DNA of 64,000 nucleotides from Candidatus Termititenax persephonae (GTDB lineage Bacteria; Margulisbacteria; Termititenacia; Termititenacales; Termititenacaceae), in contig BGZO01000003.1 in NCBI GenBank assembly GCA_003864475.1, positions 1,789 through 65,788 on the forward strand, written 5' to 3'. The position numbers and the translations under genes were made by a program. The notes under the pieces were generated by a model. The model ran no database searches and was not told the DNA's origin. It saw only the letters and a list, made by a program, of their open reading frames with translations. Shown one piece after another: positions 1-35,680 of the stretch. The stretch's first letter is position 1. The number at the start of each line of letters is the position of its first letter.

Positions 1-876
1 CACTGAGGCAAGGAGTTTGCCTTTACCGACCAAAAAATCATAGACATTATTATATAAATTAGGCAGGGCGCAATCTAATTGCGTTTTACATTTATTATCT
101 AGGTTTAAAAACTTATAACCTCTATATTTTTTAGAATTGGTCAAGCCATATATCTCCACTTCCGCACCACTATTGACAATTCTTATCCTAGCTTTTTCAA
201 AAAACAAATCCAACTCAAATACCGTATAGTTTTGACAATCCACGCCCTGCATAAAAAACTCCCCGCCCCTTGGTAAAATCAAGCGAACCGTTTTAGTGGG
301 GTCATGCTTATAAAAATCCACAAAATTATTTAATCCCTGCACACACTTAATTTGCAATCCAAAAAATTTCAACAAATCCACCAGGTGCGAACCGTTATGA
401 ATAAACCCCTTGCCATAAAAACCGCTCCCGGTTTGTAATCGCCCGTGTTTTCCTTTTCTGATTTCTAAAGCTAGTTTTTGCAACTCTGGCACAAAGCGGC
501 GGGTAAAGTTGACTTGCATCGGGATTTTCTTAGCCAGTTTTGTTATTGCCCTAGCGTCAGCCAAATCAGCGGCCAACGGCTTTTCCAAAATTATCAATCT
601 CGGATGCGCGGTGGCAGCTTGCCGCACATTTTCTAAATGAATTTTATCAGGAGTGGCGATAACAATCACATCCGCTTTTGGCAAACTGGTATACGCATTC
701 ACTTGCCATTTTTGGGCGGCCTGATTAGCTTTGGCAAAATCAACATCATAAAAACCCAATAAATTAAACCTAGATTGCTTAAGCACCGCATGGGCATGTG
801 TCAATACTTCAAGAGAATTAGGAAAATCAAGGCCGCTGGCAATCTGTCCCGCGCCGATAATTAAAACATTATACAT
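1..876 (-). CDS. Gfo/Idh/MocA-family NAD(P)-dependent oxidoreductase (C-terminal end runs off window start)
   Basis: Own reverse-strand translation from ATG 876-874: MYNVLIIGAGQIASGLDFPNSLEVLTHAHAVL...IATPDKIHLENV...RLIILEKPLAADL. It has an N-terminal Rossmann GxGxxA and the EKP motif. The frame stays open to position 1. Its start overlaps the stop of the upstream gene (ATGTATAA). It is absent from the ORF track because it is truncated. Confidence 0.75.
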   Translation of the reverse strand, partial: MYNVLIIGAGQIASGLDFPNSLEVLTHAHAVLKQSRFNLLGFYDVDFAKANQAAQKWQVNAYTSLPKADVIVIATPDKIHLENVRQAATAHPRLIILEKPLAADLADARAITKLAKKIPMQVNFTRRFVPELQKLALEIRKGKHGRLQTGSGFYGKGFIHNGSHLVDLLKFFGLQIKCVQGLNNFVDFYKHDPTKTVRLILPRGGEFFMQGVDCQNYTVFELDLFFEKARIRIVNSGAEVEIYGLTNSKKYRGYKFLNLDNKCKTQLDCALPNLYNNVYDFLVGKGKLLASV

Positions 877-1561
877 TATATAGAATCTTATACTTCATCT
901 CCGCTATCTTCCAGTCCTCTTCTGTGTCTATATCCTGAACCTCACTCTCAGGCAGAATCAAAGGCAAGGTATTTTTGCCATTCATCTTCTGCTCTCTCAG
1001 CAGGAATTCTGTCTTCGTAAAATAAAACTGTCCCGCATCATGATAGTATGGCTCCAAATCCTGTGAGCGCACATTGTAATTTTCTGGGTGCAGAAAATAC
1101 GCCTGCCCCTGTCGAATAACAAAACAACGCTGGGGCGGGTAGGAGAATCTTACCAATGGCAGGAGATTATCAAATTGCGGTTGTCTCAACAATAAAGCCA
1201 ACCCTTCTTGCAATCTCCCCGCTCTAATAAATGGTGCGCAAGGATAAACACAACACACGTGTTCAAACTTGCGACCACGTTCTTCATATTCCTGCAAAAC
1301 CTCTATCAAGACCGGTGCAGTCATCGCCATATCACTGGACATCTCCGGGCTACGATAAAAGGGGACTTGCGCCCCATATTTTTGGGCAATCTCCGCAATT
1401 TCTTGGTCATCCGTGGAAACCATCACTTCATCAAACACGCCGCTCCGCAACGCCGCTTCTATAGAGTAAGCAATGATGGGCTTACCCAAAAACTCTTTAA
1501 TGTTTTTCCTCGGTATCCTTTTACTGCCGCCGCGCGCGGGAATAATGGCAATTTTAGTCAT
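869..1561 (-). CDS. pseF: CMP-nonulosonic acid synthetase (pseudaminic acid cytidylyltransferase-like, NeuA/PseF family)
   Basis: N-terminus is MTKIAIIPARGGSKRIPRKNIKEFLGKPIIAYSIEAA...VMVSTDDQEIAEIAQKYGAQVPF, the acylneuraminate cytidylyltransferase signature. It is flanked by a Pse-associated methylase and a Gfo/Idh/MocA oxidoreductase, with overlapping start/stop codons. Confidence 0.75.
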   Translation of the reverse strand: MTKIAIIPARGGSKRIPRKNIKEFLGKPIIAYSIEAALRSGVFDEVMVSTDDQEIAEIAQKYGAQVPFYRSPEMSSDMAMTAPVLIEVLQEYEERGRKFEHVCCVYPCAPFIRAGRLQEGLALLLRQPQFDNLLPLVRFSYPPQRCFVIRQGQAYFLHPENYNVRSQDLEPYYHDAGQFYFTKTEFLLREQKMNGKNTLPLILPESEVQDIDTEEDWKIAEMKYKILYNV

Positions 1562-2187
1562 CTAACTTTTCCAGTAAAAACCAATTGAGATCATCATTGC
1601 AGTAATAATTGTCACGGTGATAGGTAAAACCATAATCCACCAGTTTAAGATTAGAAAATTTATCAAGCATTTCCCCTGCAAAATCCCGCTTAAATAACTT
1701 GCTACTATGCCCTCTATACAAGACTTCCACGGGTGTAGGATTATAATACTCAGCAATCATTATATATTGACTTGAAGCATCATATAATTTCTGATAAACA
1801 TTCTGCAATTCTTCGGGGTTAATATGAATCAAAACAGTCTTGATAAACACAAAATCTCTTTTATAATCCACATTAAAATCTAAAATAGATTGATTATACA
1901 CTTTAAAACCTTTGCTATGTAATATTTGTGTGGCCTTTTTATTAATTTCTACGGCACTAATTTCACAATCTGGCAACAATGATTGTATCGCCGTCAGATT
2001 GTTACCTGCGTTAGCACCAAATTCAATAATGGAATTTACCCCCCCCCCTCCCCGTTAAGCAATACTTAAAAATCTTAGAAAAAAGATTAATGTTGCCGCA
2101 AACATACGTCCTGCTGTCATTTCTAGAAATATAATCATCACCAAATTCACCAGACCAAAATTCTTCTTGTTCTGTTTTATATGTCAT
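1554..2187 (-). pseudogene. Pseudaminic-acid-biosynthesis-associated SAM methylase, frameshifted in a G10 tract (possible phase-variable OFF allele)
   Basis: ATG at 2187 reads MTYKTEQEEFWSGEFGDDYISRND...KYCLTGRGG and stops just after the G10 run. One G fewer joins it in frame to ORF 1554-1979, giving VNSIIEFGANAGNNLTAIQSLLPDCEISAVEIN. The SAM-binding glycine-rich motif lies in the part upstream of the annotated ORF. Confidence 0.7.
2039..2048. repeat. Homopolymer C10 on the plus strand (G10 on the coding strand), followed by T then C4
   Basis: Counted directly: ggaatttaCC CCCCCCCC t cccc g. Confidence 0.95.
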
Positions 2188-2337
2188 ATTACACCTCTCC
2201 TTAATAGGCTTTATTCACTAATGCCATTATTATTACTACAATTATAAGATAGGTATTTTAACCACGTTTAGTATTTTTGTACACTGTCAACGCTGGGAAT
2301 TTATCAAAAATAATATCGGAGGATGCAGCGGTTTACC

Positions 2338-3234
2338 CTAAAACATTTTTCTTGTACACGTTAATAGCGGAATCTTACCAAACAAATAATATCTGATGGT
2401 ATCGCCAATCACTTCTTTTGTAATCAATAATATTTTCCAAAATTTATAAATATATCGCTTGCGCAAAGACTTTTGTGGAAGTGGAATTGGGACATAATAA
2501 TTATACACATCGTCGTAAATACCGTGTTCCCGGCTAAATTCAAACATTTTCTCAGTGTAATATTGATTGCTTTTTTGAAGATAATCCATCGTTGCTTTAT
2601 CTCTCTGTATTCGAGTAACAGATTTTTTATTTTCTCTATAAAAATAGAAAACATCCGGAAGACAAACAGATTTATCAGCATAATAATAACATTGCAAATA
2701 GAAAAACATATCTTCTCTATATCCGATTTTAAATGTTGTATCCCATACTATATTATGTTTATCAAGCAGTTTTTTCTTAATCAAAGGACGGTGAGTATAA
2801 AGTTTTTCCCTAAAATTAACGCCGATTATAGCCTGTGAATGACCAATCTGTGTCTGCAAACTAAAATTATTTTCACAGACAACATTTCCACCTACCAAAT
2901 CAGCATCTATATGCATCGCATACCATAGCAACTTTTCATAGTAATCCATGGCCAACAAGTAATCATCGGCATCAACAAAATGCAAATAATCCCCTGTCGC
3001 CTGCGCCATAGACGCATTGCGTGCTGCGCTTTGCCCGGAGTTTTCTTGTGAAAAAACTTTTACCCTCTTGTCTAAATCCACATAATGTTTGGCAATTCTT
3101 TCTGTACCGTCTGTTGAGCCGTCATTGACCACTATAATTTCCAGATTTTTATGCGATTGCCATAGGATACTTTCCAGGCATTGAGCTAAATATTTTTCGC
3201 AGTTATACGCCGGTATGCAAACCGAAACGCGCAA
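2338..3234 (-). CDS. Family 2 glycosyltransferase (GT-A fold)
   Basis: (TTG start) RVSVCIPAYNCEKYLAQCLESILWQSHKNLEIIVVNDGSTDGT...FVDADDYL: the classic GT2 N-terminal motif and DxD. Confidence 0.85.
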   Translation of the reverse strand: MRVSVCIPAYNCEKYLAQCLESILWQSHKNLEIIVVNDGSTDGTERIAKHYVDLDKRVKVFSQENSGQSAARNASMAQATGDYLHFVDADDYLLAMDYYEKLLWYAMHIDADLVGGNVVCENNFSLQTQIGHSQAIIGVNFREKLYTHRPLIKKKLLDKHNIVWDTTFKIGYREDMFFYLQCYYYADKSVCLPDVFYFYRENKKSVTRIQRDKATMDYLQKSNQYYTEKMFEFSREHGIYDDVYNYYVPIPLPQKSLRKRYIYKFWKILLITKEVIGDTIRYYLFGKIPLLTCTRKMF

Positions 3235-3270
3235 CCTATTAACAGTCTGTTGTCGCAGTTCCAGTTGTTC

Positions 3271-3292
3271 GGGGGGGGGGGGGGGGGGGGGG
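3271..3292. repeat. Homopolymer G22 in the divergent intergenic region
   Basis: Counted directly: 22 consecutive G between gttc and taactcc. It lies 36 nt upstream of the TTG start of the GT2 gene (minus strand) and 81 nt upstream of the ATG of the methyltransferase (plus strand). Confidence 0.95.
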
Positions 3293-3373
3293 TAACTCCT
3301 TTCTTCGTTTTTACCAAGGAGAACATTCTGCCGGATTATTAGAAATTAAGATGAATAGCCAAGGGATGCTGTC

Positions 3374-23203: not shown

Positions 23204-24121
23204 AGTTTTTTTCGTAAATAATCGTGCCTCGCGGTGATTGCGCCAGTTGAGGTAAGGAATATACAAGCCTAATTTCATTAGAATATAAAACCATAACCGT
23301 CGAAGTTTATTAGCTTTGTTTAAGAAATCACAATGCAAAAACGAACAGTCTTTAGCAATTAATTGTTTTAGGTTTTTAGCGTACATGAAATTATTGGCTC
23401 TTTGCTCAAAGCTTGCACCCTGTCCATAGGTGGGATACCCTTTTGATGTTGTATGCAGAGGATGGTTATATATTTTTTGTTGAAAATCTTTGCTCTTTAA
23501 CAAAAAACAATTATCTGTAATATAAAATCGTCCGACGTAAAAATTACCGATAATTTTGTTGGAACGCCACTCTTGACGATTATAATTGCGGACAGGATTG
23601 GCAATCAAGTAATCGGGATTTTGAGTGAGCAATTCACAGGCCTCTGGTATCCAGAGACCGTGTTTTGGATTTGGCAAAAAAACGTCAAGCATTAGATGCA
23701 ACACAAATTCAGTCTTAGCTAAATAAATGCCCGTAAGTGCGCCGAACAAATAATGCTGTCCTTGTCCCGGAAAATCCGGCTGGATTTCCAACTTTTCTGC
23801 TATTTCTGCTCTGTAATCGTCAACAAAATAAAACACATCCAATATACCTGCGTCAACTTTTTTCTGCGCGTATTTGCGGACTATCTCTGGGTGTTTAACA
23901 TTATTGATGATGAGTTGGCGGTAGGTAAATTTTATGCCGCAGTTTTTAATCATCTGGTCGAGATAGCTGGTTTTTAGCACGTAAGCCCAGTCTTTTTCCC
24001 AGCAGAGGGTTTGAAAAGTAATTGAGCGGGATGCGGCGGAATTGAGAAATGCCTTCTTTTTAGCTATCATGTTAGAAAATATTAACATAGAAGGAAGTTT
24101 TTTGAAAATTCTGCTCCTCAA
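23189..24121 (-). CDS. Hypothetical protein (only minus-strand gene within the 13-29 kb plus-strand block)
   Basis: A 310-aa ORF in an AT-rich segment, with no family recognised. Its start is uncertain (M1, M12 or M18) because the 5' end overlaps the divergent GT4 start region. Confidence 0.55.
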   Translation of the reverse strand: MRSRIFKKLPSMLIFSNMIAKKKAFLNSAASRSITFQTLCWEKDWAYVLKTSYLDQMIKNCGIKFTYRQLIINNVKHPEIVRKYAQKKVDAGILDVFYFVDDYRAEIAEKLEIQPDFPGQGQHYLFGALTGIYLAKTEFVLHLMLDVFLPNPKHGLWIPEACELLTQNPDYLIANPVRNYNRQEWRSNKIIGNFYVGRFYITDNCFLLKSKDFQQKIYNHPLHTTSKGYPTYGQGASFEQRANNFMYAKNLKQLIAKDCSFLHCDFLNKANKLRRLWFYILMKLGLYIPYLNWRNHREARLFTKKTLDYS

Positions 24122-25358
24122 TTATTCTGACACAGGCGGCGGCGCGGCCGTGGCGGCGGTCAGACTGCTTGCTGCTTTGCGCCAGCGCGGTGTGGATGCG
24201 GATTTGGGTGTGGTGGAAAAAAACACCAGCCAGCCCAGTATAATCTGCTTGAAAAAAGATAATTTGTTAAAAAAAATATTGCGCCGCTGGCGTGCTTATC
24301 TGCTACGTTTTGCTTTTCGTACGACAAACCCGATTCTGCACTCGGAAAACAAACAAACTTTGCTGGATATTGAGCGGATTAATAATTCAGATTATGACTT
24401 GGTGCATCTGCACTGGGTTAATTACAATGCGCTGGCCATAGAGGACATGGCGAAAATTAAAAAGCCGCTGGTCTGGACGCTGCATGACCATTGGGTTTTT
24501 GCCGGAGCGGAACATTATGCCAATATCTGGGAGAACGATGAGAGATTTATGGTTGGCTATACGCGGGCTAATCAGCCGCCCACAACTAAGGGCTTAGATA
24601 TTTGCCGTTGGACTTGGGAACGCAAGAAAAAATCTTGGGCGAAGGTAAAAATAGATTTTATTGCGCCGAGTAATTATGAGCAGAATTTGTTTGCGCAAAG
24701 CGCCTTATTTAAGGGGGGGGATAATCCTAGTGCGGTGATTCCCAATATTGTGCCGGAAGATATTTTTAAGCCTTTGGCTAAGTTTGCCTTGCGGCAGAAA
24801 TATGGCATACCGCAGGATAAGAAAGTTATTGGTTTTGGCGCATTGGATATTTCCTGCGAGAAGTCTGTCAAGGGCGGTCATCTGCTCTTAGAGGCTTTGC
24901 GGAAGATTCCAGAGCCGCAGGATTTTCACTTAGTGATTTTCGGCAGGGTGGATGCTTCTTTTAGCCGCGCGGTGGCGATGCCGTTGTTTTCCGCAGGCTG
25001 GGTAGACAAGCAAAATGTTCTGGCAGAGTTGTACAATCTTTGCGATGTTTTTGTCTGTCCGTCCGTACTGGAGAACCTGCCCAATGTCTGCCTAGAGGCT
25101 TTGTTTTGCGGAGTGCCTGTCGCGGCTTTTGCGACGGGCGGTATCCCGGACATAGTGGAGCATCGGCGGACGGGTTATTTAGCGAGACCGTTTGCGGCGG
25201 AGGATTTGGCCCAGGGCATTGCTTACTGCTCGGCCCAGGCGCCAAGATTATCCGAAAATTCTTTGCTCAAAGCCGGACAAGATTTTAACAATCGAGCCGT
25301 ACTGGAAAAGCATATCTCATTTTATGAAAATGTTTTAAAATGCCGTCCAGGAGCGTGA
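24102..25358 (+). CDS. GT-B fold glycosyltransferase (GT4 family)
   Basis: KILLLNYSDTGGGAAVAAVRLLAAL...VFVCPSVLENLPNVCLEALFCGVPVAAFATGGIPDIVEH is the E-x7-E type region. TTG 24102 is preceded by AAGGAAG. The track start ATG 24042 and ATG 24069 are alternatives. Confidence 0.8.
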   Translation: MKILLLNYSDTGGGAAVAAVRLLAALRQRGVDADLGVVEKNTSQPSIICLKKDNLLKKILRRWRAYLLRFAFRTTNPILHSENKQTLLDIERINNSDYDLVHLHWVNYNALAIEDMAKIKKPLVWTLHDHWVFAGAEHYANIWENDERFMVGYTRANQPPTTKGLDICRWTWERKKKSWAKVKIDFIAPSNYEQNLFAQSALFKGGDNPSAVIPNIVPEDIFKPLAKFALRQKYGIPQDKKVIGFGALDISCEKSVKGGHLLLEALRKIPEPQDFHLVIFGRVDASFSRAVAMPLFSAGWVDKQNVLAELYNLCDVFVCPSVLENLPNVCLEALFCGVPVAAFATGGIPDIVEHRRTGYLARPFAAEDLAQGIAYCSAQAPRLSENSLLKAGQDFNNRAVLEKHISFYENVLKCRPGA

Positions 25359-34232: not shown

Positions 34233-34595
34233 ATGCCTAAATTAATATCATTGCCGACTTACCGGGACGGCCGCGGCAGTTTGACTGTGGTGGAAAAAAT
34301 CCTGCCTTTTGAGATTAAGAGGATTTACTATATTTATAATTGCGCCGATTTGCCGCGCGGCGGGCATCGACATAAAAAAGCGATACAAGCCTTGATTTGC
34401 CTGAAGGGTTCTTGCGCGGTCGACTGGAATAACGGCCAGGCCAAAGGCACGGTTGACTTAAACCAGCCTGACCAAGTATTGATTGTGTTGCCGGAGGATT
34501 ACCATGTCATGCGTGATTTTACACCCGAGGCCGTGTTACTGGTAATTTCGTCGGAATATTTTGCCGCCGAGGATTATATAGACGAGGATTATTGA
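34233..34595 (+). CDS. FdtA/QdtA (WxcM C-terminal)-like dTDP-4-keto-6-deoxyhexose 3,4-ketoisomerase
   Basis: YRDGRGSLTVVEKILPFEIKRIYYIYNCADLPRGGHRHKKAIQALICLKGSC...EYFAAEDYI closely follows the FdtA pattern (RGxL..E...PF.IKR.YYI....RG.HAHKK..Q.L.CL.GSC). Confidence 0.8.
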   Translation: MPKLISLPTYRDGRGSLTVVEKILPFEIKRIYYIYNCADLPRGGHRHKKAIQALICLKGSCAVDWNNGQAKGTVDLNQPDQVLIVLPEDYHVMRDFTPEAVLLVISSEYFAAEDYIDEDY

Positions 34596-35680
34596 TGCTG
34601 GAATACGAAAATCTGGCGCGGCTTAACGCTCCCTTTCTAGCGCAATACCAAGACAAGTTTGCCGAGATTGCCCAAAAAGGCTGGTATATTTTGGGCAACG
34701 AAGTTTCCTTGTTTGAGCGGGAGTTTGCCGATTATTGTGGTGCGCGATACTGCGTCGGGGTCGCCAACGGTTTGGACGCGCTGACCTTATCTTTGCGGGC
34801 GTGCGCTTTCCCCCCCCAGTCAGAAATTCTTGTTCCCGCCAATACTTATATTGCGACAATTTTGGCGGTCTTGCAGGCCGGGCATATTCCCGTGCTGGTC
34901 GAGCCGGACATCCGTACCTATAATCTTGATGACAAACTTGTCGAAGCTAAAATAACCGCTAAGACTAAAGCCATTATGCCTGTGCATCTCTACGGACGGC
35001 TGTGCGCCATGCCCGAAATTTTATCTCTGGCGCAGAAATACCAGCTGAAAATAATCGAGGATGCCGCGCAGGCGCACGGCGCGGCCTTGAACGGGCGCAG
35101 GGCCGGGGCGTGGGGAGATTTGACAGCTTTTAGTTTTTATCCGACCAAAAATTTAGGGGCATTGGGCGACGGCGGCGCGGTAACCACAGACAACGCAGAG
35201 TATGCGGAGAGATTAAAAGCCCTGCGCAATTACGGCTCATCCCAAAAATATTATAACGCAATGCTTGGCGTGAATTCCCGTCTGGACGAAGTGCAGGCGG
35301 GTTTTCTGCGGATTAAATTAAAATCTCTAGACAAAATCAACGCGCATAAAAATAAATTGGCCGCTATTTATCAAGCGGAACTGCCTGGCCAATTCATCAA
35401 GCCTTGGGTCGCGCCGGAGTATTATCATGTCTACCACATTTACAATATCCGCCACCCTGAGCGCGACCGCCTGAAAAAATATTTGGCACAGCAGGGCATC
35501 AAGACGGAGATTCATTATCCCGTCGCGCCCAATAAACAACAAGCCCTGCGCGGTATCTTGGCTCAGCTAGCTACGCCGTTGGCGGAAGAAATCCACCGCA
35601 CGACGCTGACTTTACCGCTGTCCTATGCCCACACGGAGACGGATATTTTGCACGTCTGTAAAATCTTAAAAAAGTTCTAG
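34592..35680 (+). CDS. DegT-family PLP aminotransferase (FdtB/QdtB-like, dTDP-3-amino-3,6-dideoxyhexose forming)
   Basis: GWYILGNEVSLFEREFADYCGARYCVGVANGLDALTLSL...FSFYPTKNLGALGDGGAV. There is a 4-nt overlap with the isomerase gene. Confidence 0.8.
   Translation: MMLEYENLARLNAPFLAQYQDKFAEIAQKGWYILGNEVSLFEREFADYCGARYCVGVANGLDALTLSLRACAFPPQSEILVPANTYIATILAVLQAGHIPVLVEPDIRTYNLDDKLVEAKITAKTKAIMPVHLYGRLCAMPEILSLAQKYQLKIIEDAAQAHGAALNGRRAGAWGDLTAFSFYPTKNLGALGDGGAVTTDNAEYAERLKALRNYGSSQKYYNAMLGVNSRLDEVQAGFLRIKLKSLDKINAHKNKLAAIYQAELPGQFIKPWVAPEYYHVYHIYNIRHPERDRLKKYLAQQGIKTEIHYPVAPNKQQALRGILAQLATPLAEEIHRTTLTLPLSYAHTETDILHVCKILKKF

What the first reader, a model, noticed from the sequence alone, without database searches (positions are those of the whole stretch)
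1554..2187. G10 tract splits the pseudaminic-acid-associated methylase: candidate phase-variable (contingency) gene
Reading the minus strand from ATG 2187 gives MTYKTEQEEFWSGEFGDDYISRND...KYCLTGRGG. The frame terminates a few codons after a run of 10 G (plus-strand C10 at 2039-2048, then T and C4). With 9 or 12 G the frame joins ORF 1554-1979. That restores VNSIIEFGANAGNNLTAIQSLLPDCEISAVEIN, the glycine-rich SAM-binding motif that the annotated 141-aa ORF lacks.

Length-variable poly-G tracts in flagellin or surface nonulosonic-acid glycosylation loci are the classic on/off switch of Campylobacter. The same design here sits next to a pseF-like gene in a very different genome. It suggests stochastic switching of a sugar-methylation step.
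Basis: partly seen in the sequence, partly recalled or inferred. Interest (0 to 1): 0.6.

Follow-up and report, generated by a model that had tools for sequence, protein, structure and literature searches.

The report
Poly-G switch in pseudaminic-acid methylase gene
A run of ten G's breaks a sugar-methylating enzyme gene in an uncultured Margulisbacteria genome that carries dozens of such runs, so it is most likely an ordinary slippage-driven on/off switch for a surface-sugar decoration, caught "off", in a bacterial group where such switches were not known.

Summary
On the minus strand, GGGG-A-G10 (window 2039-2048) shifts the frame of a gene that, read with G9 or G12, gives a 210-aa protein. 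That protein matches TIGR03587 (pseudaminic-acid-associated methylase) end to end at 264 bits (cut-off 112). As assembled (G10), translation stops after 54 aa, and the 141-aa downstream ORF lacks the SAM-binding motif.

The contingency-gene reading is well supported but only indirectly.
- The genome has 42 G/C runs of 10 nt or more against about 0.25 expected.
- Other genomes of the same family share this excess. Sister lineages do not.
- Other tract-bearing genes are glycosyltransferases, methyltransferases and lipoproteins, found both in and out of frame.
- The tract encodes a 4-residue insertion, in a loop before motif I, that no homologue has.
- Among about 160 homologous genes, only two others carry a long G run. 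Both are in frame and sit in a different loop.

Switching itself could not be tested.

The organism has MutS and MutL but no flagellin, so the target is a surface glycan, not flagella. Verdict: a new member of a known kind. The lineage-wide tract repertoire is the more interesting result.

The parts
2039..2048 (-). G10 homopolymer on the coding strand (plus-strand C10). It follows GGGG-A (2053-2049) and is followed by TAA. This is the slippage-prone tract.
   Evidence: ORF lengths across the tract are 54 aa at G10, 210 aa at G9 and 169 aa at G11.
2023..2187 (-). 5' fragment of the methylase gene as assembled. ATG is at 2187. There are 47 native codons, then GGGKFHY, then TGA. Product is 54 aa.
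   Evidence: The N-terminal part matches TIGR03587 positions 1-41.
1554..2039 (-). 3' part of the methylase gene, in the -1 frame relative to ATG 2187. It includes SAM-binding motif I (IIEFGANAGNNL, about 2030-1995). The 141-aa ORF called from TTG 1979 lies within it.
   Evidence: TIGR03587 positions 28-203 match at 215 bits.
2194..2202 (-). Ribosome-binding site AAGGAGAGG, 6 nt upstream of ATG 2187.
   Evidence: Read from the sequence.
2255..2283 (-). Promoter-like site (TGTACA, 17 nt, TAAAAT) in the 150-bp gap between the GT2 gene and the methylase gene. Consensus match only.
869..1561 (-). pseF (CMP-pseudaminic acid synthetase). Its ATG (1561-1559) overlaps the methylase stop (TAA 1556-1554) as ATGACTAA. 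Translational coupling and polarity from the OFF state are therefore possible (inferred).
   Evidence: TIGR03584 at 302.6 bits, cut-off 205.7. Overlap read.
1..876 (-). Gfo/Idh/MocA-type oxidoreductase gene downstream of pseF. It runs off the window. Further downstream on the contig are a glycosyltransferase-like gene and a PseC/LegC-like aminotransferase.
2338..3234 (-). Family-2 glycosyltransferase gene directly upstream of the methylase gene.
   Evidence: PF00535 at 127 bits.
3271..3292 (-). Second tract of the locus: C22 on the coding strand of the GT2 gene. It lies 37 nt upstream of the gene's TTG start and inside a short ORF from ATG 3326. One extra base would fuse that ORF to the GT2 frame (329 aa). 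It acts either in the leader or in the N-terminal extension.
   Evidence: The stated length is uncertain (7 tracts at exactly 20 nt plus 3 at 21-22 nt in the assembly).

Best explanation
The gene encodes a class I SAM-dependent methyltransferase of the TIGR03587 family. This family travels with pseudaminic acid (Pse) biosynthesis genes and most likely adds a methyl group to Pse or to one of its nucleotide-sugar precursors.

In this Margulisbacteria genome the gene has acquired a poly-G tract. The tract encodes a short Gly/Arg insertion in the loop just before strand beta-1 and the SAM-binding motif. Slipped-strand mispairing during replication changes the tract length.
- G9 or G12 gives the full 210/211-aa enzyme (ON).
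- G10, as assembled, gives a 54-aa peptide. G11 gives a 50-aa peptide that stops at the TAA directly after the tract. Both are OFF.

Cells in the population would therefore differ, heritably but reversibly, in whether their Pse-containing surface glycan is methylated. Because the pseF start codon overlaps the methylase stop codon, the OFF state may also lower pseF translation and so Pse display as a whole.

What is shown:
- the tract and its frame logic
- the family assignment
- the Pse pathway in the genome
- the lineage-wide excess of tracts
- the insertion character of the tract

What is inferred:
- that the tract length really varies
- the substrate of the enzyme
- the polar effect on pseF
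- the ecological benefit, such as varying the surface towards phages, partner cells or the host
For: 1. Frame logic and full-length family match. There is no other lesion in either half of the gene.

2. A Pse pathway is present. pseF is adjacent (302 bits). PseB (511 bits), PseC (456), PseH (115) and PseI (464) lie on contig C25.

3. The genome has 56 G/C runs of 8 nt or more and 42 of 10 nt or more, against 7.5 and 0.25 expected. A/T runs show no such tail.

4. The excess is a lineage trait. Counts of G10/C10 words:
- own genome: 247
- same genus: 228, 362 and 145 (18 and 22 in the two smallest, most incomplete genomes)
- the other genus of the family: 63 and 50
- the sister family, other class members and most of the phylum: 0-6, at most 31

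5. About 24 tracts lie in genes with a clear frame effect. About 11 are OFF: two GT2 genes, an FkbM methyltransferase, a Methyltransf_24 gene, DUF5672, a radical SAM gene, a transglutaminase-like gene and two lipoproteins. About 13 are ON. Most OFF tracts lie within codons 10-50.

6. The tract region is a 4-residue insertion absent from all 65 genomic homologues and from the nearest relatives (67% identity, 203-205 aa).

7. Among about 160 homologous genes, only two others have a G/C run longer than 6. These are G12 and G14, in frame (DMGGGGE and DLGGGGE), in a different loop, in two 0.9-Mb 'Holosporaceae' MAGs. Those MAGs hold only 4 and 2 tracts of 10 nt or more in total.

8. An AlphaFold model of one of these homologues (pLDDT 92) places both tract-encoded stretches in loops of a class I methyltransferase fold. 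TM-score is 0.71 to N-terminal and other N-methyltransferases.

9. An orthologous membrane GT2 gene (67% identity) in the other genus of the family also carries a 5' tract, of different length, at the same place.

10. Precedent: C. jejuni Cj1325, an acetimidino-N-methyltransferase, has tract lengths G8-11 with G9 in frame (PMC3025981).
Against: - No direct evidence of length variation.
- No second assembly of this gene exists in the genome, metagenome or protein collections.
- The methylase and pseF are absent from the seven other genomes of the family, so orthologues cannot be compared.
- MutS and MutL are intact. Slippage would be corrected better than in Campylobacter, although Neisseria shows that mismatch-repair-proficient bacteria can still phase-vary.
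- This is a 90%-complete MAG. A consensus over a population may hide or misstate the tract length.
- The biochemical activity of TIGR03587 proteins has never been shown. NCBI classes the model as 'hypoth_equivalog'.
Confidence: 0.7

Rival explanations
1. Assembly or consensus artefact. The dominant allele in the sample is really G9 (gene intact), and G10 is a homopolymer miscall or a minority variant chosen by the assembler. The tract would still be slippage-prone, but the 'split gene' would not exist.
For: The genome is a fragmented MAG of 201 contigs. Many contigs break at G/C tracts. There are 7 tracts of exactly 20 nt plus 3 at 21-22 nt, which suggests the assembler struggled with homopolymers.
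Against: Ten bases is far below any k-mer ceiling. Tracts of similar length in the same assembly are found both in frame and out of frame, so there is no systematic +1 bias. Poly-G read-tail artefacts cannot create a tract whose two flanks continue the same gene.
Confidence: 0.12
2. Fixed pseudogene. A +1 slip in a horizontally acquired accessory gene that is no longer needed and is on its way to loss. There is no adaptive switching.
For: The methylase and pseF are unique to this species within its family, and the locus is G+C-poor (33-38% against 49.8%), as expected for recently acquired, dispensable DNA. Other genes in the locus look damaged according to earlier notes of this scan, which I did not check.
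Against: There is no second lesion in 210 codons, and the HMM match is end to end. The tract is itself a derived insertion that no homologue has. The same gene family gained long in-frame G tracts independently in two other genomes. A single -1 slip restores the gene.
Confidence: 0.1
3. Leaky expression without DNA switching. RNA polymerase slippage on G10, or ribosomal frameshifting, produces a constant fraction of full-length enzyme. The tract would then set the expression level rather than an on/off state.
For: Transcriptional slippage on long homopolymers restores frames in some bacteria; this is from my own background knowledge and was not tested. Several long tracts in this genome sit in promoter or leader modules, where they would act as dimmers rather than switches.
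Against: Nothing in the sequence points to a programmed frameshift site (no slippery heptamer and no downstream structure was sought or seen). Known slippage rescue mostly involves A/T runs. This does not explain why the tracts are inserted.
Confidence: 0.08

Closest known systems
Campylobacter jejuni Cj1325/6 (PtmH-type acetimidino-N-methyltransferase) and the other poly-G genes of the flagellin glycosylation locus (Cj1295, maf genes)
   Same: - An intragenic poly-G tract of 8-11 nt switches a methyltransferase that decorates a nonulosonic acid.
- G9 is the in-frame length (PMC3025981).
- The gene sits among other tract-bearing glycan genes (PMC6321876).
   Different: - The sugar there is legionaminic acid on flagellin. 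Here there is no flagellin gene and the pathway is Pse.
- The methyltransferase found upstream of pseF is described as non-homologous to PtmH (PMC13317340). I did not test this myself.
- Campylobacter lacks MutS/MutL-type repair (my own knowledge). This genome has both.
Neisseria and Haemophilus lipooligosaccharide glycosyltransferase genes with poly-G/C tracts (lgtA, lgtC, lgtG), and genome-wide 'phasomes'
   Same: - Mismatch-repair-proficient bacteria with tens of homopolymer tracts in surface-glycan genes and in promoters.
- ON and OFF alleles are mixed within one genome (PMC5084427 listed; otherwise my own knowledge).
   Different: - Those are pathogens or commensals of animals in Pseudomonadota.
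- This is an uncultured Margulisbacteria lineage, with its own tract context (G(n)TAA) and tracts up to about 20 nt.
TIGR03587 pseudaminic-acid-biosynthesis-associated methylases of other bacteria and archaea
   Same: - Same family (264 bits) and the same position directly upstream of, and overlapping, pseF.
- More than 7,900 relatives at E of 1e-30 or better.
   Different: - All but two of about 160 inspected genes have no G/C run longer than 6.
- None has the 4-residue insertion.
- The activity of the family is itself uncharacterised.
TIGR03587 genes of two 'Holosporaceae' MAGs (JAIRMQ010000037, JAIRZD010000016)
   Same: - A long poly-G tract (G12, G14) inside the same gene family, again next to pseF.
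- These small genomes have very few such tracts.
   Different: - The tract lies about 40 codons further downstream, in another loop, and is in frame (ON).
- The proteins are only 51-56% identical to this one, so the tracts arose independently.

Membership tests
TIGR03587 (pseudaminic acid biosynthesis-associated methylase) | Full-length match to the family model above its curated cut-off | tested here: met
   The read-through protein scores 264 bits against a cut-off of 112. Residues 3-207 align to model positions 1-203 of 204. The two fragments as assembled score 215 and 42 bits.
TIGR03587 (pseudaminic acid biosynthesis-associated methylase) | Genomic association with pseudaminic acid biosynthesis genes | tested here: met
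   pseF overlaps its stop codon. PseB, PseC, PseH and PseI are all above cut-off on contig C25.
TIGR03587 (pseudaminic acid biosynthesis-associated methylase) | Class I SAM-dependent methyltransferase fold with a glycine-rich motif I | tested here: met
   The motif EFGANAGNNL aligns with the invariant E..G.N of 42 homologues. The AlphaFold model of a homologue has pLDDT 92.4 and TM-score 0.71 to NTMT1, BpumL, NodS and TylM1. No Pfam family reaches E 0.001 by sequence.
TIGR03587 (pseudaminic acid biosynthesis-associated methylase) | Methylation of pseudaminic acid or a precursor | not testable with these tools
   This needs biochemistry. The model itself is a 'hypothetical equivalog'.
Simple-sequence contingency locus (phase-variable gene) | Homopolymer of 8 nt or more inside the reading frame, where a one-base change toggles between the full product and an early stop | tested here: met
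   products are 54 aa at G10, 210 aa at G9, and an immediate TAA at G11.
Simple-sequence contingency locus (phase-variable gene) | Tract length polymorphic within a population or between close strains | not testable with these tools
No other copy of the gene at more than 67% identity exists in any collection searched.
Simple-sequence contingency locus (phase-variable gene) | Tracts over-represented in the genome and concentrated in surface-structure genes | tested here: met
   42 tracts of 10 nt or more against 0.25 expected. They lie in glycosyltransferase, methyltransferase and lipoprotein genes and in fibre-gene promoter modules. Relatives in the family share the excess.
Simple-sequence contingency locus (phase-variable gene) | Tract is a derived feature maintained at the locus, not part of the conserved protein | tested here: met
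   It is a 4-residue insertion relative to all homologues. It maps to a loop between helix 25-39 and strand 47-51 of the model.
PtmH / Cj1325-6 methyltransferase family | Sequence homology to the Campylobacter N-methyltransferase | not tested
   No Campylobacter sequence was fetched. PMC13317340 states that the methyltransferase upstream of pseF is non-homologous to PtmH. The search of the family of a 'Campylobacteraceae' MAG (61 genomes) found 15 TIGR03587 matches above cut-off, 14 of them intact and one broken by three stop codons, and none carrying a G/C run of 7 nt or more.

The most novel reading that the evidence does not exclude
The methylase tract is one element of a large, family-wide 'phasome' in Margulisbacteria (said by earlier notes to be from termite guts). 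This phasome comprises 40 or more poly-G/C tracts in glycan-modifying enzymes, lipoprotein genes and conserved promoter modules of a fibre-like gene family. It is maintained despite intact MutS and MutL.

The tracts carry a common G(n)TAA (= TTA-C(n)) context. This context occurs in 70% of long tracts against 6-9% of short runs, and in either orientation relative to the gene.

That signature, together with orthologues that carry G in one genus and C in the other at the same site, would point to a dedicated way of creating or renewing tracts rather than chance expansion. Horizontally acquired genes such as this methylase would be 'wired into' the switch repertoire after arrival.
Probability: 0.35. 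Interest if true: 0.65.

Novelty: new member of a known kind. Interest (0 to 1): 0.42.

Why it matters
Homopolymer contingency loci are textbook for a few animal pathogens (Campylobacter, Neisseria, Haemophilus, Helicobacter). This case shows the same design in a non-flagellated, uncultured Margulisbacteria lineage, on a nonulosonic-acid decoration step, as part of a repertoire of dozens of tracts shared by the family.

If the tracts really switch, surface-glycan and fibre heterogeneity is probably central to how these symbionts deal with phages, partner cells or hosts.

It also matters for annotation. Pipelines will call many of these genes 'pseudogenes' or fragments, as with the 141-aa ORF here, and so understate the glycan capacity of such MAGs.

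Independent gain of poly-G tracts in the same uncharacterised methylase family in three genomes marks that enzyme as a decoration whose presence is advantageous only some of the time.

Tried and rejected
- **Read evidence.** This was the decisive test and it remains undone.

- **Other assemblies of the same gene.**
  - An exact look-up of PseF found nothing.
  - The metagenome scan gave at most 63% identity.
  - The 5.8-billion-protein search gave at most 67% identity, apart from the window's own 141-aa ORF.
  - No ON allele could therefore be found.

- **Orthologues in relatives.** The methylase and pseF are absent from all seven other genomes of the family.

- **Homology to Cj1325/6.** The family reached through a 'Campylobacteraceae' MAG had genomes of 1.3-3.2 Mb. 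Of the 15 TIGR03587 matches above cut-off, 14 were intact and one was broken by three stop codons, and none carried a G/C tract of 7 nt or more. I relied on the literature instead.

- **Provenance of the two 'Holosporaceae' MAGs.** Their isolate names suggest a termite-gut series. Three literature look-ups did not confirm it, so I make no claim.

- **Poly-G read-tail or chimeric-join artefact.** Rejected for intragenic tracts, because both flanks continue one gene and the excess is shared by other assemblies of the family.

- **Sequence search of PDB.** No relative was found. Only fold comparison was informative.

- **Fusing ORFs on contig C25 across its G14 tract.** The two ORFs are in the same frame and separated by a stop. 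That tract is not a frameshift site.

Full report
**The observation**

On the minus strand the sequence reads ...TGC TTA ACG GGG AGG GGG GGG GGT AAA TTC CAT TAT TGA.
- The G10 occupies window 2048-2039. It is preceded by GGGG-A and followed by TAA.
- The reading frame opens at ATG 2187, six bases after a strong ribosome-binding site (AAGGAGAGG). It ends after 54 codons.
- In the frame of the downstream ORF, a TAA lies three codons before the tract. No ATG, GTG or TTG follows until TTG 1979.
- The 141-aa ORF that a gene caller would report therefore begins after the SAM-binding motif VNSIIEFGANAGNNL.
- G9 or G12 joins the two parts into 210 or 211 codons. G11 brings the TAA directly after the tract into frame (and direct reading).

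**What the gene is**

The read-through protein matches NCBIfam TIGR03587, 'pseudaminic acid biosynthesis-associated methylase'. The match runs from position 1 to 203 of 204 at 264 bits, against a cut-off of 112. Neither half has another lesion.
- The stop codon of the gene overlaps the start of pseF as ATGACTAA (TIGR03584, 302.6 bits).
- Downstream on the same strand lie an oxidoreductase, a glycosyltransferase-like gene and a PseC/LegC-like aminotransferase.
- Upstream lies a family-2 glycosyltransferase.
- The core pathway is on contig C25: PseB 511 bits, PseC 456, PseH 115 and PseI 464.
- The enzyme family has no solved relative by sequence.
- An AlphaFold model of a homologue (pLDDT 92.4) is a class I methyltransferase. 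Its nearest solved structures are amine N-methyltransferases: NTMT1/NRMT, plantazolicin BpumL, NodS and TylM1, at TM-score about 0.7. N-methylation of a Pse substituent is therefore plausible but only a hint.

**The organism**

The window lies in a 1.83-Mb, 201-contig, roughly 90%-complete MAG with 49.8% G+C.
- Its MutS is 74-80% identical to proteins that NCBI names 'Candidatus Margulisbacteria bacterium'.
- Earlier notes of this scan say it comes from a termite gut. I did not check that.
- All eight genomes of its family have MutS and MutL.
- None of them has a flagellin gene. The Pse is therefore destined for a surface polysaccharide or a non-flagellar glycoprotein, not for flagella.
- The methylase and pseF occur only in this species within the family, and the locus is G+C-poor (33-38%). 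The module was probably acquired horizontally.

**Is the tract more than chance?**

Within a 33%-G+C gene, the chance of a run of 10 or more is about 8e-5.
- Genome-wide, G/C run counts fall by a factor of 5.5 per base from 3 to 7 nt. The distribution then flattens into a tail up to 22 nt.
- There are 56 runs of 8 or more and 42 runs of 10 or more, against 7.5 and 0.25 expected. A/T runs have no such tail.
- The excess is shared by other assemblies of the family. G10/C10 word counts are 228, 362 and 145 in the larger genomes of the same genus, and 63 and 50 in the other genus.
- Outside the family, counts are 0-6 in most genomes and at most 31 in any.
- This argues against an artefact of one assembly.
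- Tracts at contig ends, and a peak of seven tracts at exactly 20 nt, show that the lengths of the longest tracts are not reliable. A 10-nt tract is not affected.

**Genomic context of the tracts**

I lengthened or shortened each tract by one base in a script and asked for the longest ORF across it. About 24 tracts lie in genes with a clear frame effect.
- About 11 are out of frame as assembled:
  - this methylase
  - the neighbouring GT2 gene
  - a membrane GT2
  - an FkbM methyltransferase
  - a Methyltransf_24 protein
  - a DUF5672 protein
  - a radical-SAM protein
  - a transglutaminase-like protein
  - two lipoproteins
- About 13 are in frame, including GT1 and GT4 glycosyltransferases, a DegT aminotransferase, an ankyrin lipoprotein and several giant proteins.
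- Most out-of-frame tracts lie within codons 10-50.
- Other tracts sit in conserved non-coding modules upstream of fibre-like genes.

A mixture of ON and OFF states, 5' location and enrichment in surface-glycan genes is the anatomy of a contingency-locus repertoire.

**Evidence specific to this gene**

- Aligned with 65 genomic homologues and with the nearest relatives in the protein collection (67% identity, 203-205 aa), the tract region is a 4-residue insertion. The sequence is ...KYCLTGRGGVNS... against ...GKTQGVCS... in relatives. No other sequence has this insertion.
- In the structural model the insertion falls in the loop between a helix and strand beta-1.
- Among about 160 homologous genes from genomes and metagenomes, only two others contain a G/C run longer than 6.
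- Those two are G12 and G14, both in frame, encoding GGGG in a different loop, in two 0.9-Mb 'Holosporaceae' MAGs. Those MAGs have only four and two tracts of 10 nt or more in their whole genomes.
- Three independent gains of a long G tract in loops of one small enzyme are hard to explain except by selection for switchability.
- In the other genus of the Margulisbacteria family, the orthologue of the membrane GT2 (67% identity) also has a 5' tract at the same place, of different length.

**What could not be shown**

Length variation is the defining property of a switch, and it was not tested.
- No second copy of this strain's gene exists in the collections.
- The alternatives therefore remain open: a miscalled or minority length (the gene is really G9), a fixed pseudogene, or leaky expression by transcriptional slippage. 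I rate them together at about 0.3.

**Mechanism proposed**

Replication slippage toggles the tract between lengths divisible by three (enzyme made) and other lengths (50- or 54-aa peptide without a SAM site). This gives a mixed population with methylated and unmethylated Pse on the surface.

Because pseF has only a weak ribosome-binding site of its own and overlaps the methylase stop codon, the OFF state may also reduce CMP-Pse synthesis. This is an inference from the sequence. No terminator-like site lies between the two genes.

**Comparison with what is known**

- The closest functional precedent is C. jejuni Cj1325/6. It is an acetimidino-N-methyltransferase for a legionaminic-acid derivative, with tract lengths G8-11 and G9 in frame (PMC3025981). 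It sits within a flagellin-glycosylation locus full of poly-G genes (PMC6321876; PMC3068675).
- A 2026 survey of Clostridium notes a methyltransferase directly upstream of pseF that is non-homologous to PtmH (Cj1325/6) and of unknown role (PMC13317340). That description fits TIGR03587.
- This case therefore works like the Campylobacter example but uses a different enzyme family, a different sugar target (no flagella) and a mismatch-repair-proficient host. In that last respect it resembles Neisseria more closely.

**Verdict**

It is a new member of a known kind.

The more interesting result lies around it: a family-wide repertoire of poly-G/C tracts in Margulisbacteria with an unexplained common sequence context. 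G(n) is followed by TA in 31 of 44 long tracts against 6-9% of short runs.

Noticed in passing
window 3271-3292 (and 3186-3326, 2338-3234): A second tract, 1.2 kb from the first. It is C22 on the coding strand, 37 nt upstream of the TTG start of the GT2 gene, inside a short ORF from ATG 3326. One extra base would fuse that ORF to the GT2 frame (329 aa). It could act in the leader or as an N-terminal frameshift switch. The length is uncertain.
   Followed up: partly
whole genome (G000), e.g. window 2036-2048; contigs C21:17833, C27:2664, C28:19816, C38:1541: Long G tracts share a 3' context. G(n) is followed by TA in 31 of 44 tracts of 9 nt or more, and by TAA in 55%. For G4-G7 runs the figure is 6-9%. 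After removing repeated flanks it is still 25 of 33. The pattern holds whether G or C is on the coding strand, and also in the sister genus (8 of 11). Selection for a stop codon cannot explain both orientations. Unexplained.
   Followed up: partly
G000 contigs C4:26574, C5:51616, C18:22, C59:5750, C67:506, C79:3156, C84:1, C98:707, C124:1898, C154:841 and others: About a dozen copies of a conserved non-coding module. Its layout is: GC-rich hairpin, GTGTTAAGTRRCATTTA, C(11-22), AATTTTTGGCTTAGRTACGCCAAAAA (hairpin), about 70 nt, a ribosome-binding site, then ATG of 'MASPYTG...' fibre-like genes. It looks like a promoter or leader cassette with a variable-length tract. Many contigs end in it.
   Followed up: partly
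G000 contig C40:6639, 9108, 10946, 12617 and the C91 end: A second conserved upstream module: ATTTCATGCAAGT, C(11-12), ATCGATATATAGGCAT...GGGAGGTGATTAA, ATG. It is repeated four or five times in tandem gene units. One copy has 11 and the others 12 bases in the tract.
   Followed up: partly
G000 C5:27477 vs L187 (G006:C51); G000 C6:51272 vs L182 (G006:C13:448): Two orthologue pairs between the two genera of the family carry a tract at the same place in the protein but with the opposite base on the coding strand. The pairs are FTGGGVTT against TATPPPPAIS, and TFTPPPPTNS against HSPGGGGRPK. Tracts appear to be replaced or regained rather than simply inherited.
   Followed up: partly
G000 C27:2664 and L190 5531-5544 (G006:C66): The same composite repeat, C(n)(AC)n, encoding PPPPPP-HTHTHT, occurs in an FkbM methyltransferase gene in one genus and in a Glyco_tranf_2_5 gene in the other.
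   Followed up: no
L101 (G000 contig C25:12000-24310): This is the core Pse operon: PseB, PseC, a formyltransferase-like gene, PseH, FkbH, a VOC protein, FkbM and PseI. It carries a C16 tract 78 nt upstream of pseH and a G14 tract 81 nt upstream of the FkbM gene. The contig ends in a C9 run right after pseI.
   Followed up: partly
L038 4377-4388; L054 6264-6277; L191-L194: Two 0.9-Mb 'Holosporaceae' MAGs have in-frame G12 and G14 tracts in their TIGR03587 genes. Their few other long tracts lie in paralogous TadE-like proteins and in a putative outer-membrane protein. These look like small contingency repertoires in reduced genomes.
   Followed up: partly
window 24713-24720 and 34810-34817: A G8 in a GT4-type glycosyltransferase gene (24042-25358) and a C8 in a DegT aminotransferase gene (34592-35680). 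Both are in frame, and both are at the lower length limit for slippage tracts.
   Followed up: no
G000 C7:23902 (C20) and C7:29860 (C14): Two putative lipoprotein genes have a poly-C tract immediately upstream of the lipobox signal peptide (...LLSLFVVGC, ...LLAFFSAGC). Both are out of frame as assembled.
   Followed up: no
G000 C8:26002: A G12 tract lies at the junction of a TetR-family regulator ORF and an outer-membrane efflux protein (OEP) ORF. As assembled, the two read as one 671-aa frame.
   Followed up: no
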